From: a virus
Direction: 5' to 3' (one strand)
Virus record (IMG/VR): IMGVR_UViG_3300045988_120893
Span: 1,821-65,820 of that record
DNA: 64,000 nt
Under the pieces are notes generated by a model. It was not told where the DNA came from. It did no database searches and saw only the letters and a program-made list of their open reading frames with translations. The number at the start of each line of letters is the position of its first letter. The stretch's first letter is position 1. The translations under genes were made by a program, and so were the position numbers. Positions 6,087 to 8,722 of this stretch are shown piece after piece.

Positions 6087-8186
6087 TTACTTGTGAGGTT
6101 TTGTTTCGTTGTTTTCATTTGAGGTTTTTTCGAGGACTTCTTTTATTCCCTCTATGACATAAAGGAAGCATGGTAGGGCAATTCCGTTCCCCCAGAGCTT
6201 ATAAGCTGCGCCATCGGAATACGGATTTTGCAGCCATTTTATGATCTGTTTGTCCGTCTTTGGTTTCTTTGCTCCTGTTACTATCTTTCTATGTGTTTCA
6301 AAAACTTCTCGCCAAAAGGCTATATCATGACCTGTCGGTTCTTCTGTTTCCAGACCATCAAGCCACCAGTCCGGGAAGCCTTGCAATCTTGCACATTCAA
6401 TCGGTGTCAGCCGTCTTACTATGTAGGATGGTTCAACAATCAGATCAGTAGCATCTTTGTAATCTCTGCTTTTTAGGCAGCTTGCTTTTCCTGATTCATC
6501 ATATTTACCGAACGCTTTCATTTCAAATCCACATTGCTGTGCTACCGGATTGATATAATTCAATGATTGACCGCCGTTTGACTTTGCTTGTAATGTACCG
6601 CTCTTTTCTTCTATTGGAACATTATTTCTGCAATCGTAGGCTACTGCGTGTTGCTCTGTCGCATTCAGCGTGTACATAGTTTCTGATTCCTTATATCCAT
6701 CTCCACGGTGTGATGGTCGAGAGCCGTTACCTTCCACAACGCATATACCGCCTTGATTGCAAGCAGGATTACCACCATTGAGGTCTAATGTTCTTGCCGT
6801 GTCAGCTTCGTATATTCCGCTATGTGGATTATCGGATTTCATTGAATTTGAGCCATAAGAGCATATTCCATAAACTTTCTTTTGTGGCTCAAATAGCGTC
6901 TGTGGAACACCACAGCTCAATGTTGCTGATTTGTTTATCTGAAGCAATGCACCTTTACCGCCGCCCTCACATCCACTGCGTATCTGCATAGTGACTGGTG
7001 GATTGTCATTTTGAGGTTCAAATATACATTGTGTTCCTTTGTAATCTGTCCCAGTTAGAGTATTTGCAATCTCTTTTCCTACTGTGCAAGCATATTGTCT
7101 TTCATTCATACAATATGTTTCTTTCGGCAGACAATACAACCCTGTCTTTGCTCCTGATCCACCGCCTAATCCTTGTAATGTTACCGACTTTGTTGCGTTC
7201 ATCTGTATTCTGTCAGCAACTCTTCCAAAATCAACGGCATATTGTTCTTCTTTCGCCACGCAAAACTGGTTATCGCCCATGTTCGCTCTTAATGATCCAG
7301 TTTGGTTATCGTATGTATGTCCACCGGTTCGTGTTGCTGCCCCAGGTTCAAAACCTATGCAATGTTCGCTTGATGCATCAGTGCCTTTCGCAATATCTCC
7401 GGAAGTTGCTTGCCACGATTTTCGGCTCTCCGTAAAATTCCTTGACAAGCCTTTGCGCTTAAATAGTATTTCTCCGGCACATTGTCCTGCAAAATCTGCG
7501 ACAAGAGCGATTCGTCTACGTCTTTGGGGGACTCCCCAAAATTGAGCATCGAGAACTCTCCAGGCAATGGACCACCCATCACCCACGATGCATCCCTCTG
7601 TATTCCATTTTCCTTTCGGAGGTCTAGGAATAGTGGCGGTCTTGTCAACGACTTTCGCTGTTTCTTCAAGTACGGCTCGAAAATCTTCTCCTTTGTTGCT
7701 GCTGAATGCTCCTGTGACGTTCTCCCAGAGCATGAATCTAGGTCGAATATGCTCATCTGTCCTTCCACTTCGTAATCTTGCCAATTCATCAGCTTGTCTC
7801 ATCTCCTTTACTATTCTGATCTGCTCCATGAATAAACCGGAGCGTGTGTATTGCATTTCAGAACCACACTCCGGGCAAGTGTCCGTATCTTCATTGGCTA
7901 CCGATTTGTAACCACATTTTGGACACTCTTTGCTCATTCCTTTTCGTTTTCCTGCAACGGACATATCTTGACATGGGCTTCCGCCTGTTATGAGGTCTAC
8001 CGGCTCAAGGTCAGAGCCGGATATTGAGGATATATCTCCGTAATGTTTCATGTGGGGAAATCGTTTCGTGGTAACTCTTATTGGAAACGGTTCGATTTCA
8101 GAAGCCCATATCGGCTCCATTCCGCAAAGTGTGGCGGCTAATTCAAAGCCACCTGATCCTGAAAATAAACTTCCTATTCGAAACAA
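6087..8186 (-). CDS. DNA (cytosine-5) methyltransferase, large form
   Basis: 699 aa. Motif I FSGSGGFE, IV GGSPCQDMS, VI LWENVTGAF, VIII FWGVPQRRRRI, C-terminal RRLTPIECARLQGFP and WGNGIALP. About 360-aa variable region between VIII and IX. CxxC..CxxC insertion after motif IV. Confidence 0.9.
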   Translation of the reverse strand: MFRIGSLFSGSGGFELAATLCGMEPIWASEIEPFPIRVTTKRFPHMKHYGDISSISGSDLEPVDLITGGSPCQDMSVAGKRKGMSKECPKCGYKSVANEDTDTCPECGSEMQYTRSGLFMEQIRIVKEMRQADELARLRSGRTDEHIRPRFMLWENVTGAFSSNKGEDFRAVLEETAKVVDKTATIPRPPKGKWNTEGCIVGDGWSIAWRVLDAQFWGVPQRRRRIALVADFAGQCAGEILFKRKGLSRNFTESRKSWQATSGDIAKGTDASSEHCIGFEPGAATRTGGHTYDNQTGSLRANMGDNQFCVAKEEQYAVDFGRVADRIQMNATKSVTLQGLGGGSGAKTGLYCLPKETYCMNERQYACTVGKEIANTLTGTDYKGTQCIFEPQNDNPPVTMQIRSGCEGGGKGALLQINKSATLSCGVPQTLFEPQKKVYGICSYGSNSMKSDNPHSGIYEADTARTLDLNGGNPACNQGGICVVEGNGSRPSHRGDGYKESETMYTLNATEQHAVAYDCRNNVPIEEKSGTLQAKSNGGQSLNYINPVAQQCGFEMKAFGKYDESGKASCLKSRDYKDATDLIVEPSYIVRRLTPIECARLQGFPDWWLDGLETEEPTGHDIAFWREVFETHRKIVTGAKKPKTDKQIIKWLQNPYSDGAAYKLWGNGIALPCFLYVIEGIKEVLEKTSNENNETKPHK
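7355..7789 (-). CDS. Alternative-frame ORF embedded in the methyltransferase gene (possible overlapping gene)
   Basis: 144 codons, ATG start, same strand, different frame, covering MTase motifs VI-VIII. Translation is balanced and protein-like (GQMSIFDL..GRTSQEHSAATKEK..LSQILQDNVPEKYYLSAKACQGILRRAENRGKQLP). See finding. Confidence 0.35.
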   Translation of the reverse strand: MNWQDYEVEGQMSIFDLDSCSGRTSQEHSAATKEKIFEPYLKKQRKSLTRPPLFLDLRKENGIQRDASWVMGGPLPGEFSMLNFGESPKDVDESLLSQILQDNVPEKYYLSAKACQGILRRAENRGKQLPEILRKALMHQANIA

Positions 8187-8722
8187 AATACCAACCCTCC
8201 TGCTTTTTTTCTATTACCATTAGCACATTCAGATGCCTTTGAGTAATTCGTATTATTTTGCCTAGCCGCTTCCAATAATGTTTCATACTTTCCTATGAGT
8301 ACACCATCTTTATATACGGCTGTTTTTTTTCTTCCAAAATTCCGTTTTGCTCCCATGCTCCTATAATCTGTTTTTTCGTGAACCTTTTTTGCACGTTCTT
8401 TTGTAACTTCATTTTCTTGCTGCTCTTTATAAGTTGCCCATTCAAGATTTTCAACCCTGTTATCATCTCGTATTCCGTTTTTATGATTTACAGTAGGCTT
8501 GTTGTACGGATTCGGAATAAATGCTTGTGCAACAAGCCTATGTGCTTTTAGTGTTTTTCTTACTCCATCAATACTTATCACATAATATAGATATCCGTAT
8601 TTATCTGTCGATGGACGCAAAAACTTATTTCTTCTATTGCTATATAAACGTCCGTCATTTGTAATTGAATACAACCCGTCAAAGAGCGAACCCATCTTAA
8701 ACTGTTTTCGTGTTTCTTCCAT
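8174..8722 (-). CDS. HNH homing-endonuclease-like protein (NUMOD4 + HNH)
   Basis: 182 aa. YSITNDGRLYS (NUMOD4-like), LKAHRLVAQAF..VNHKNGIRDDNRVENLEWATYKEQ (HNH_3-like). AT-rich. 13-nt overlap with the MTase start. Confidence 0.8.
   Translation of the reverse strand: MEETRKQFKMGSLFDGLYSITNDGRLYSNRRNKFLRPSTDKYGYLYYVISIDGVRKTLKAHRLVAQAFIPNPYNKPTVNHKNGIRDDNRVENLEWATYKEQQENEVTKERAKKVHEKTDYRSMGAKRNFGRKKTAVYKDGVLIGKYETLLEAARQNNTNYSKASECANGNRKKAGGLVFCFE

What the first reader, a model, noticed from the sequence alone, without database searches (positions are those of the whole stretch)
7355..7789. Protein-like 144-codon ORF out of frame inside the methyltransferase catalytic core (possible dual coding)
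Seen: on the same strand as the MTase, shifted by one nucleotide, an ATG-initiated ORF spans the DNA that encodes MTase motifs VI-VIII. For example, TTTTGGGGAGTCCCCCAAAGACGTAGACGA reads FWGVPQRRRR in the MTase frame and FGESPKDVDE in the other. The alternative translation (MNWQDYEVEGQMSIFDLDSCSGRTSQEHSAATKEK...FLDLRKENG...SWVMGGPLPGEFSMLNFGESPKDVDESLLSQILQDNVPEKYYLSAKACQGILRRAENRGKQLPEILRKAL) is compositionally balanced, unlike the other overlapping ORFs in the track. From memory, segments such as GKTSPEHS..TKEK and LSQILE....KY.LS.KAC.GILRRA..RGK.LP occur in annotated proteins of Firmicutes mobile elements. GKTSPEHSAATKEKTS is exactly the shifted reading of the family-conserved WENVPGAFSSNKGEDF. 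That would mean the second frame is open and annotated in many relatives. I cannot verify this memory here. At an unbiased stop rate of 3/64 per codon, a 145-codon open stretch has a chance of roughly 1e-3, so length alone is not decisive.
Basis: partly seen in the sequence, partly recalled or inferred. Interest (0 to 1): 0.65.

Follow-up and report, generated by a model that had tools for sequence, protein, structure and literature searches.

The report
Hidden gene inside phage DNA methyltransferase
A second protein-coding gene lies out of frame inside a phage cytosine DNA methyltransferase gene, is conserved in relatives from gut Clostridia phages to coliphages P1 and P7, and is annotated in none of the 15 phage records examined.

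Summary
The ORF is real: window 7355-7789, minus strand, 144 codons, ATG start, +1 frame of a 699-aa C5 methyltransferase (6087-8186). It is not a chance ORF.

- **Stays open.** In 23 representatives the +1 frame has no stops; the other four alternative frames do. Given the methyltransferase protein and its codon usage, chance openness is 5e-5 for the window.
- **Synonymous change suppressed.** It falls from about 0.6 to 0.09-0.2 exactly over the overlap.
- **Selected frame switches.** Over the last ~45 codons the alternative frame is the conserved one: 63% versus 38% amino-acid identity across 73 representatives.
- **Translation signals.** The start codon and a ribosome-binding-like site are conserved.

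The product has a disordered N-terminal part, often carrying a QxSLF motif that resembles a sliding-clamp-binding motif. It ends in a confidently predicted helical hairpin, LSQIL..KYYLS.KAC.GILRRA..RGK.LP..L..AL.

All 15 GenBank phage records examined have the same +1 ORF, unannotated, inside the methyltransferase CDS. They include P1, P7 and phages of Vibrio, Mycobacterium, Caulobacter and a cyanobacterium.

Function is inferred only. The most likely role is a partner of the methyltransferase it is embedded in; the closest precedent is the M.EcoHK31I beta chain. No expression data were available.

The parts
6087..8186 (-). Host gene: C5 cytosine DNA methyltransferase, 699 aa, motifs I-X in normal order, with a CxxC..CxxC zinc-ribbon insert at aa 85-112 and a long multi-module target-recognition region
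   Evidence: Pfam PF00145 1e-37; TIGR00675 4.6e-36
7355..7789 (-). Embedded +1-frame ORF, 144 codons plus stop (stop codon at 7355-7357)
   Evidence: conserved open in all relatives; P(open) = 5e-5
7787..7789 (-). ATG start of the embedded ORF. It is formed by a methyltransferase codon ending in AT followed by G, and is kept as ATG (GTG in two) at its clade-conserved position in 23 representatives.
   Evidence: distant phages also have ATG or GTG near the 5' end of the open stretch
7803..7806 (-). GGAG Shine-Dalgarno-like motif 13 nt upstream of the ATG, lying in the methyltransferase codons for K-E-M-R. Relatives have GAGG or AGGAG at 6-13 nt.
   Evidence: inferred as a ribosome-binding site, not shown
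7745..7759 (-). QMSIF (embedded-ORF aa 11-15), a Q-x-[SD]-[LIM]-F motif resembling the beta sliding-clamp-binding consensus QL[SD]LF. It is encoded where the methyltransferase frame is a variable insertion.
   Evidence: 25 of 128 unique locus ORFs (0.05 expected in shuffles) at a fixed distance from the hairpin; 87 of 120 and 79 of 144 database proteins; also QLDLF in mycobacteriophages and QMSMF in cyanophage Pan4
7511..7744 (-). Predicted disordered, Ser/Lys/Thr-rich middle of the embedded protein (aa 16-93). It overlaps the folded methyltransferase core (motifs VI-VIII).
   Evidence: pLDDT about 50; methyltransferase pLDDT 80-90 here; methyltransferase position 3 is still the most variable
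7376..7510 (-). Conserved C-terminal module of the embedded protein (aa 94-138): SLLSQILQDNVPEKYYLSAKACQGILRRAENRGKQLPEILRKAL. It comprises a short helix and a two-helix hairpin and contains a near-invariant Cys.
   Evidence: pLDDT about 90; 63% mean identity versus 38% in the methyltransferase frame; entropy by alternative codon position 0.79/0.73/1.29
7317..7457 (-). Methyltransferase linker between motif VIII and the target-recognition region (aa 244-290). It is predicted disordered, and its sequence is largely dictated by the embedded ORF.
   Evidence: pLDDT below 50 from aa 244
7716..7724 (-). Methyltransferase motif VI (ENV)
7518..7526 (-). Methyltransferase motif VIII (QRR)

Best explanation
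This is a genuine, ancient overlapping protein-coding gene in the +1 frame of a phage C5 DNA methyltransferase gene.

It most likely starts at its own ATG behind a Shine-Dalgarno-like site, inside the region that encodes the methyltransferase K-E-M-R segment. It gives a protein of about 15 kDa. The first ~95 residues are disordered and are encoded over the folded catalytic core (motifs VI-VIII). The last ~45 residues form a conserved helical hairpin and are encoded over the methyltransferase's disordered linker between motif VIII and the target-recognition region. Each stretch of DNA therefore carries one structured and one unstructured reading.

Inferred function, about 45% likely: the small protein is a partner of the methyltransferase in which it is embedded. 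The hairpin would bind the enzyme or its DNA substrate. In the clades that carry the N-terminal QxSLF motif, that motif would tether the complex to the replication sliding clamp. The model here is the M.EcoHK31I beta chain, which is also encoded out of frame inside the alpha gene.

In some relatives a slippage-prone poly-G tract just downstream joins the small ORF in frame to the target-recognition and motif IX-X part. The result is a split enzyme: a catalytic half, plus a half made of the small domain and the recognition region.

Shown here: the conserved ORF, frame-specific purifying selection, conserved start signals and the predicted fold. Inferred: translation, binding partners and biological role.
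For: (1) The +1 frame is stop-free in 23 of 23 representatives, while the other alternative frames are not. The exact null given protein sequence and codon usage is 5e-6 to 0.2 per representative, with summed log10 P = -54.7.

(2) The fraction of synonymous differences is 0.55-0.70 along the gene. It drops to 0.30-0.45 over the start and N-terminal part and to 0.09-0.21 over the C-terminal module, then returns to 0.63 straight after the alternative stop.

(3) The most variable codon position switches from methyltransferase position 3 to position 1, which is the alternative wobble, over alternative codons 96-140. In 73 representatives from several bacterial phyla, amino-acid identity is 63% in the alternative frame, 38% in the methyltransferase frame and 36% in the third frame.

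(4) A conserved ATG or GTG lies behind GAGG, GGAG or AGGAG.

(5) AlphaFold2 gives pLDDT of about 90 for the hairpin and about 50 for the N-terminal part. The methyltransferase is confidently folded up to aa 243 and disordered afterwards.

(6) All 15 GenBank phage records checked have the match in the +1 frame of the annotated methyltransferase CDS, with an open stretch of 135-192 codons. They are P1, P7, Vibrio CP-T1, mycobacteriophages Omega and NihilNomen, Caulobacter BL94, Pseudanabaena Pan4, and Sinorhizobium, Aeromonas, Pseudomonas, Roseobacter, Enterobacter, Streptococcus and Monoglobales phages.

(7) The QxSLF motif is enriched at a fixed position.

(8) Fusions of the small domain to the recognition and IX-X half are numerous. 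Both halves show dN/dS of about 0.1 between L083 and L086.

(9) No unusual RNA structure is present (z = -0.18) and the window has no Rfam match.

(10) The precedent for an embedded out-of-frame methyltransferase subunit is M.EcoHK31I (PMC2836561).
Against: - No expression evidence (ribosome profiling, proteomics, genetics) could be consulted, so translation is inferred from evolution only.
- The product matches no Pfam, NCBIfam or PDB family, so the function has no direct support.
- The window's Shine-Dalgarno-like motif sits rather far from the ATG (13 nt).
- The clamp-binding-like motif is missing in large clades (L006-L061 type, P1/P7, CP-T1).
- Unlike M.EcoHK31I alpha, this methyltransferase carries all ten motifs in its own frame, so nothing obvious is missing that the small protein would supply.
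- Similarity of the hairpin to the segment after motif VIII in E. coli Dcm is not significant (hhalign E = 0.084).
- The fused 'Form B' loci are all from metagenome-assembled genomes. They could be inactive phase variants or assembly errors at homopolymers.
Confidence: 0.85

Rival explanations
1. The embedded gene is real, but its product acts independently of the methyltransferase. It could inhibit host defences that attack cytosine-methylated DNA, or act as a small DNA-binding regulator. On this view it is embedded only to guarantee co-inheritance and co-expression.
For: The protein is small, basic, mostly disordered and ends in a short helical hairpin, as in many phage anti-defence and regulatory proteins. 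The methyltransferase already has all ten motifs. The hairpin is conserved across hosts of several phyla, which also fits a universal target such as DNA.
Against: Repeated in-frame fusions of the small domain to the recognition half of the same enzyme exist. There is no match in PADLOC-independent libraries or the PDB. PADLOC itself was not searched. A host-specific defence target would not predict 63% identity across phyla.
Confidence: 0.3
2. The hairpin is not made as a separate small protein. It is added to methyltransferase polypeptides by programmed ribosomal or transcriptional slippage, so the relevant products are trans-frame fusions. These would be the catalytic domain plus hairpin, or the hairpin plus the recognition region.
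For: Poly-G tracts of 7-11 G lie 90-110 nt downstream of the hairpin in several lineages, and their length tracks the fused or split state. Hundreds of database proteins carry the small domain fused to the recognition half.
Against: The upstream ~95 codons are kept open against expectation (N-terminal part alone P = 0.0006-0.25 per representative). Start codons and Shine-Dalgarno-like motifs are conserved, and an N-terminal motif is conserved only in the alternative frame. The window and most relatives have no homopolymer tract. The alternative stop lies 3-10 codons after the hairpin in most loci.
Confidence: 0.1
3. The conservation reflects a nucleic-acid element (RNA structure, internal promoter or protein-binding site), or is a passive by-product of methyltransferase constraints and codon bias. 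On this view it is not a second protein.
For: Part of the N-terminal similarity (GKTSPEHS..TKEKTS) is a passive echo of WENVPGAFSSNKGEDF. Embedded ORFs in conserved genes are often spurious. One antisense frame is also stop-poor.
Against: Variation has three-base periodicity centred on the alternative frame's wobble position. Amino-acid identity in the alternative frame is far above both other frames at equal nucleotide identity. Openness is far beyond the codon-usage null. RNA folding is unremarkable and there is no Rfam match. E. coli dcm has 4 stops in the equivalent +1 stretch.
Confidence: 0.03

Closest known systems
M.EcoHK31I alpha/beta (C5 methyltransferase whose beta chain is encoded entirely in another reading frame inside the alpha gene; Lee et al. 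1995, as described in PMC2836561 and PMC3404938)
   Same: Both have a second polypeptide encoded out of frame and entirely inside a C5 methyltransferase gene. The sizes are similar (176 aa versus 135-190 aa). The N-terminal part is dispensable or acts as a linker.
   Different: EcoHK31I beta supplies motif IX, which alpha lacks, and is required for activity. Here motif IX is in the main frame (RRLTPIECARLQGFPD) and the small protein has no significant motif IX similarity. EcoHK31I is a single restriction-modification enzyme, whereas this ORF is conserved across thousands of phage methyltransferases.
M.AquI alpha/beta and artificially split C5 methyltransferases (PMC3404938)
   Same: The 'Form B' relatives (L068, L083, L086, L087, L128) split the enzyme between motif VIII and the recognition region. 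PMC3404938 reports this as the best split point for fragment complementation.
   Different: The window's enzyme is not split. In Form B the C-terminal half carries the ~140-aa out-of-frame domain at its N-terminus, overlapping the catalytic half by about 140 codons. M.AquI has no such long overlap as far as the cited texts say.
Lambda Rz/Rz1 (own knowledge): a gene embedded in the +1 frame of another phage gene, with the two products forming one complex
   Same: Both involve a +1 embedded gene in a phage. There is a functional link between host-gene product and embedded-gene product; here that link is proposed, not shown.
   Different: The proteins and process are unrelated (lysis versus DNA modification). 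Rz1 is experimentally proven and this ORF is not.
Sliding-clamp-binding motif proteins (QL[SD]LF consensus; E. coli MutS QMSLL, Hda N-terminal motif; eukaryotic DNMT1-PCNA; own knowledge)
   Same: There is a short Q-x-[SD]-[LIM]-F motif near the terminus of a disordered region. It is attached, directly or through a partner, to a DNA methyltransferase.
   Different: Binding is untested. The motif is absent in many clades. The match is to a five-residue consensus only.
dcm-vsr overlap in E. coli
   Same: A second gene overlaps a C5 methyltransferase gene on the same strand.
   Different: Per the annotated coordinates, vsr overlaps only the last ~20 nt of dcm. By own knowledge, it encodes a folded endonuclease. 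There is no similarity to the protein found here.

Membership tests
Dual-coding (overlapping) protein gene | The alternative frame is kept open in relatives beyond what the host protein and its codon usage predict | tested here: met
   23 of 23 representatives are stop-free only in the +1 frame. The exact null is 5e-5 for the window and summed log10 P is -54.7. 75 of 80 genome loci carry the short embedded ORF, and the other 5 have it extended.
Dual-coding (overlapping) protein gene | Synonymous-site variation of the host gene is suppressed over the overlap only | tested here: met
   The fraction of synonymous differences is about 0.6 in the flanks, 0.09-0.45 inside the overlap, and back to 0.63 after the alternative stop.
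Dual-coding (overlapping) protein gene | Purifying selection is visible in the alternative frame itself (wobble periodicity; amino-acid identity above the other frames) | tested here: met
   Entropy by alternative codon position is 0.79/0.73/1.29. Identity is 63% versus 38% and 36%.
Dual-coding (overlapping) protein gene | Conserved start codon and ribosome-binding site | tested here: met
   ATG or GTG is retained at its clade-conserved position in 23 representatives, behind GAGG or GGAG. AGGAG or GGAGG lies 6-10 nt upstream in Pan4, Roseobacter, Pseudomonas and Vibrio phages.
Dual-coding (overlapping) protein gene | The product is detected (ribosome profiling, mass spectrometry, genetics) | not testable with these tools
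   No expression data are available here.
M.EcoHK31I-type beta subunit | Encoded entirely inside the methyltransferase gene in another frame | tested here: met
M.EcoHK31I-type beta subunit | Carries motif IX, which the large chain lacks | tested here: not met
   The main frame has motif IX (VRRLTPIECARLQGFPDWW) and motif X. The small protein gives no DNA_methylase match at E <= 1.
M.EcoHK31I-type beta subunit | Required for methylation; binds the large chain | not testable with these tools
   This needs biochemistry.
Split (M.AquI-like) C5 methyltransferase | The enzyme is made of two polypeptides divided after motif VIII | tested here: not met
   The window ORF is continuous over 699 aa. The feature is met only in relatives L068, L083, L086, L087 and L128.
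Sliding-clamp-binding proteins | A QL[SD]LF-like pentapeptide in a disordered terminal region | tested here: met
   The window has QMSIF at aa 11-15 in a region with pLDDT of about 50. The motif is enriched 25 versus 0.05 expected. This shows the motif only, not binding.
Sliding-clamp-binding proteins | Binding to DnaN | not testable with these tools
   This needs a binding assay or a complex prediction.
Canonical post-motif-VIII segment of Dcm-type methyltransferases (hairpin as a displaced ancestral segment) | Significant sequence or profile similarity to that segment | tested here: inconclusive
   The best hhalign alignment falls on Dcm 284-337, right after motif VIII, but E = 0.084 and probability is 0.7%. 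There are no PDB methyltransferase hits at E <= 10. phrog_16143 'DNA methyltransferase' is hit by 61 of 91 members, but what that family contains is unknown.
Phase-variable homopolymer switch | A long homopolymer tract at the frame junction | tested here: not met
   No run of 7 or more G is seen by eye in window 6400-8400. The scripted scan covered relatives only, and found tracts in L003, L063-65, L083, L086, L087, and mycobacteriophages Omega and NihilNomen.

The most novel reading that the evidence does not exclude
Dmt-like phage C5 methyltransferases, including that of phage P1, may be two-component machines. The hidden +1-frame protein would be a universal adaptor whose hairpin binds the enzyme. 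Where the QxSLF motif is present, it would dock the enzyme on the replication sliding clamp, making this a bacterial-virus counterpart of DNMT1-PCNA coupling. Poly-G slippage would toggle between a free adaptor and an adaptor fused to the recognition half.
Probability: 0.2. Interest if true: 0.9.

Novelty: new variant of a known kind. Interest (0 to 1): 0.8.

Why it matters
Long same-strand overlapping genes with strong comparative support are rare in DNA phages, and standard annotation discards them. This one is deeply conserved: it occurs in phages of Firmicutes, Proteobacteria, Actinobacteria and Cyanobacteria. At least 567 loci matched in a scan of one genome per species (185,579 genomes), and 4714 protein representatives matched a profile of it. 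It also sits inside dmt of phages P1 and P7, so it can be tested directly in E. coli.

It explains a recurrent annotation artefact. Gene callers sometimes report the small ORF instead of the methyltransferase, or report 'hypothetical proteins' that are the small domain fused to the recognition half.

If the small protein is a subunit or adaptor, the biochemistry of a very common class of phage anti-restriction methyltransferases has been studied without one of its parts.

It is also a clean natural example of the rule that, in dual-coding DNA, a structured reading pairs with a disordered one.

Tried and rejected
- **Library searches on the small protein.** Pfam and NCBIfam gave no hits. A PDB profile search gave only chance hits. 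Foldseek of the model against the PDB gave nothing below E = 2.
- **Homology to the Dcm post-motif-VIII segment.** The alignment fell in the right place but was not significant. A database search with E. coli Dcm returned only close relatives of at least 74% identity, so it was no use for building a better profile.
- **Chance or codon bias.** Rejected.
- **Database hits coming only from frameshifted pseudogenes.** Rejected.
- **RNA structure or known RNA family.** Rejected.
- **The long antisense ORFs in the window as an equal oddity.** They are not conserved.
- **An apparent exception, L041.** It seemed to lack the ORF. In fact it carries the hairpin further downstream, after an insertion.
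- **Obtaining the M.EcoHK31I sequence or the original paper.** Neither is held.
- **Literature searches for a prior description of this embedded ORF.** Nothing was found. The library lacks most subscription journals, so prior description cannot be excluded.
- **Nucleotide search of the window against GenBank phages.** No match.
Full report
**1. Observation**

The window has a 699-aa ORF on the minus strand (6087..8186) that is a C5 cytosine DNA methyltransferase. It matches Pfam DNA_methylase at 1e-37 and TIGR00675 at 4.6e-36. Motifs I-X are in normal order, and a zinc-ribbon insert lies at aa 85-112.

On the same strand, ORF 7355..7789 has 144 codons and an ATG start. It begins 397 nt into the methyltransferase gene, so it is in the +1 frame. 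Each of its codons consists of methyltransferase positions 2, 3 and the next position 1. The region is part of a temperate phage or prophage. Nearby genes include a serine integrase, a ParA-like gene, an HNH endonuclease overlapping the methyltransferase start, and an endolysin.

**2. Is it more than chance?**

I fetched relatives by querying with the methyltransferase frame only, so that the sample was not biased towards the alternative frame. This gave 58 viral loci.

- In 55 of 56 loci that hold the segment, the +1 frame is open for 132-147 codons with conserved boundaries. The methyltransferase segment is only 50-62% identical. The one apparent exception, L041, carries the module further downstream.
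- Among 23 representatives below 90% nucleotide identity, only the +1 frame is stop-free in all. The +2 frame and the antisense frames have up to 17 stops.
- An exact dynamic-programming null fixes the methyltransferase protein and draws synonymous codons from the gene's own usage outside the overlap. It gives P(open) = 5e-5 for the window and 5e-6 to 0.2 for the others. The summed log10 P is -54.7, although the representatives are not fully independent.
- The first ~90 codons alone, where the methyltransferase frame dominates, have P = 0.0006-0.25 per representative.
- E. coli dcm, a C5 methyltransferase outside this family, has four +1 stops in the equivalent stretch.

**3. Which frame is under selection?**

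I used a codon alignment of full-length methyltransferases. I measured the fraction of codon pairs that encode the same amino acid but differ in the codon used. This fraction is 0.55-0.70 along the gene. It falls to 0.30-0.45 over the start and N-terminal part of the embedded ORF and to 0.09-0.21 over its C-terminal third. It returns to 0.63 immediately after the embedded stop.

The most variable codon position is methyltransferase position 3 in the flanks and in the first ~95 embedded codons. Over embedded codons ~96-140 it switches to methyltransferase position 1, which is the embedded wobble position.

I then took 73 representatives below 85% nucleotide identity. They were drawn from viral contigs, genomes and GenBank phages of several phyla. 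Over the 44-codon module:

| Reading | Mean pairwise identity |
|---|---|
| Embedded (+1) frame, amino acid | 63% |
| Methyltransferase frame, amino acid | 38% |
| Third frame, amino acid | 36% |
| Nucleotide | 63% |

Entropy by embedded codon position is 0.79, 0.73 and 1.29. This is the signature of protein-coding selection in the embedded frame. Here the methyltransferase reading is essentially a passenger, apart from a short ILFE.E motif. The RNA of this stretch folds no better than shuffles (z = -0.18), and the window has no Rfam match.

**4. Translation signals**

The embedded start is ATG (GTG in two) at its clade-conserved position in the 23 representatives. It is created by a methyltransferase codon ending in AT followed by a Gly codon. 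It is preceded by GAGG or GGAG from the K-E-M-R codons, where Arg is almost always AGG or AGA. Distant phages have AGGAG or GGAGG 6-10 nt before their first ATG or GTG. In the window, GGAG (7803-7806) lies 13 nt from the ATG, which is rather far.

**5. The product**

AlphaFold2 with 91 homologues predicts residues 1-94 as disordered (pLDDT about 50). Residues ~95-143 form a short helix plus a two-helix hairpin with pLDDT of about 90.

A model of the methyltransferase's first 340 residues is confident up to aa 243. It is disordered from aa 244 on, exactly where the hairpin is encoded. Structured and disordered readings are therefore complementary.

The conserved module is [CS]LLSQ[VI]LE...[IV]P.[KR]Y[YF]LS.[KT]AC.GIL[RN]RA.KRGK.LP..L..AL, with a near-invariant Cys.

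A second embedded-frame-specific motif, Q-x-[SD]-[LIM]-F, lies about 100 residues upstream of the hairpin. It occurs in 25 of 128 unique locus ORFs, against 0.05 expected in shuffles. It also occurs in 87 of 120 and 79 of 144 database proteins. Examples are QMSIF in the window, QLDLF in mycobacteriophages Omega and NihilNomen, and QMSMF in cyanophage Pan4. By my own knowledge it resembles the beta-clamp-binding consensus QL[SD]LF. It is absent in the L006-L061 clade, P1/P7 and CP-T1.

The protein has no Pfam, NCBIfam or PDB match. Its only library hit is phrog_16143, labelled 'DNA methyltransferase', for 61 of 91 members; what that family contains is unknown.

**6. Distribution**

- A word-indexed protein search found 1098 clusters.
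- A full profile search found 4714 representatives at 50% identity, 652 of them below 1e-30.
- A scan of one genome per species found at least 567 loci, mostly Clostridia.
- tblastn against GenBank phages found 133 records.

In all 15 records inspected, the match is in the +1 frame of the annotated methyltransferase CDS. The open stretch is 135-192 codons, and no record annotates it. The records are P1 dmt, P7 dam/dmt, Vibrio CP-T1, Mycobacterium Omega and NihilNomen, Caulobacter BL94 and Pseudanabaena Pan4. The remaining eight are Sinorhizobium NV1.1.1, Aeromonas BUCT552, Pseudomonas UF_RH7, Roseobacter CRP-822, Enterobacter CobraSix, Streptococcus Javan105 and Monoglobales CHVD 5762.

**7. 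Fused forms**

Many database proteins of 200-712 aa carry the small domain at their N-terminus. It is followed in frame by recognition modules, motifs IX and X, and, in circularly permuted enzymes, motif I.

In DNA, these come from loci where the methyltransferase frame stops shortly after motif VIII and the +1 frame runs on. I call this 'Form B'. It accounts for 5 of 80 genome loci: L068, L083, L086, L087 and L128. The junctions differ between lineages. Several lie at poly-G tracts: G8 in L083 and L086, G11 in L087, G9 in L063-65, and G7 in L003, where the frame is continuous.

Between L083 and L086, both the catalytic-only part and the recognition-only part have dN/dS of about 0.1. These genes are therefore not decaying. 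They may work as split enzymes, since the best split point for fragment complementation lies between motif VIII and the recognition domain (PMC3404938). Alternatively they may switch reversibly. All Form B genome loci are from metagenome-assembled genomes, so homopolymer errors cannot be excluded. One such protein, however, is identical in three independent samples.

**8. How it most likely works**

Shown: a conserved, separately startable +1 ORF under its own purifying selection.

Inferred: it is translated into a ~15 kDa protein that is co-expressed with, and acts with, the methyltransferase. There are four reasons to favour a partner role (about 45%).

- It is strictly co-inherited with this methyltransferase family across phyla.
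- Its conservation across hosts points to a universal target: the enzyme itself, DNA or the clamp.
- It repeatedly fuses to the recognition half.
- M.EcoHK31I sets a precedent. Its beta chain is encoded entirely in another frame of the alpha gene and is required for activity (PMC2836561).

The clamp-tether idea rests on a five-residue motif only (about 20%). An independent role, such as anti-defence or regulation, remains a serious rival (about 30%). Trans-frame products made by slippage are possible in the poly-G lineages. They do not explain the conserved upstream start, the open N-terminal part or the N-terminal motif (about 10%).

One further idea is that the hairpin is an ancestral post-motif-VIII segment displaced into another frame. 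The best hhalign alignment to E. coli Dcm does fall on that segment, but it is not significant (E = 0.084).

**9. Comparison with known systems and novelty**

This is not a member of the M.EcoHK31I beta type in the strict sense, because motif IX is in the main frame here. It resembles that system in gene architecture. It is not an M.AquI-type split enzyme in the window, though some relatives are.

Full-text searches found no description of this embedded ORF. The library is incomplete, so prior description cannot be excluded. I rate it a new variant of a known kind: an embedded out-of-frame gene in a C5 methyltransferase gene, or more broadly phage overprinting. It has an uncharacterised protein family and an unexpectedly wide, ancient distribution.

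**10. Limits**

- No expression or biochemical evidence was available.
- The representatives are phylogenetically related, so the combined P-values are overstated.
- The functional model is inference.

Noticed in passing
L001 4823-6268; L003 4826-6554; L062 3826-5246; L063 2307-3884; L082, L125, L127 (locus coordinates): Many relatives are circularly permuted C5 methyltransferases. The protein starts just before motif IV and ends with motif I (..MASLFDGIGGFPL..WASEIEEFPIAVTK). The embedded ORF is present in both permuted and normal versions.
   Followed up: partly
L083, L086, L087, L063-L065, L003, L149, L156: 90-111 nt downstream of the 'AC.GIL' anchor: Poly-G tracts of 7-11 G lie exactly where the methyltransferase frame and the embedded frame can merge. 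Tract length tracks whether the enzyme is continuous or split, which suggests phase variation or programmed slippage.
   Followed up: partly
L160 (phage P1 OP279344.1, dmt): In this P1 isolate, dmt carries an intein-like insertion of about 340 aa inside catalytic motif IV (GGTPC|FTAGH...VVHN|CQAF). P7 dam lacks it.
   Followed up: no
P0187 (605 aa, database protein): An HNH/NUMOD-like endonuclease domain is inserted in frame between 'RLQGFP' and 'GWTDIG' of motif IX of a Form B protein.
   Followed up: no
window 7851-7934 (-), methyltransferase aa 85-112: A CxxC...CxxC zinc-ribbon insertion lies between motifs IV and V of the methyltransferase (weak DUF7129 and rubredoxin-like hits). It is absent from most relatives.
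   Followed up: no
L001 5001-5438 and 5486-6268: The metagenome gene caller reported the embedded ORF plus a 260-aa fragment, although a full 481-aa methyltransferase ORF is open. This is a systematic annotation hazard for the family.
   Followed up: yes
window 6998-7435 (+) and 7084-7545 (+): Two long ORFs of 145 and 153 aa lie antisense to the methyltransferase. The corresponding frames carry stops in most relatives, so they are shadow ORFs.
   Followed up: yes
L149 1583-2887; L156 1122-2239: In Omega-cluster mycobacteriophages the methyltransferase is annotated as two CDS (motifs I-VIII, then a C-terminal part). The embedded ORF lies inside the first, and in NihilNomen (L156) an HNH endonuclease gene follows.
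   Followed up: no
window 8174-8722 (-): An HNH homing-endonuclease-like gene ends 13 nt inside the start of the methyltransferase ORF. The methyltransferase start in the ORF list is TTG, so its true start is uncertain.
   Followed up: no
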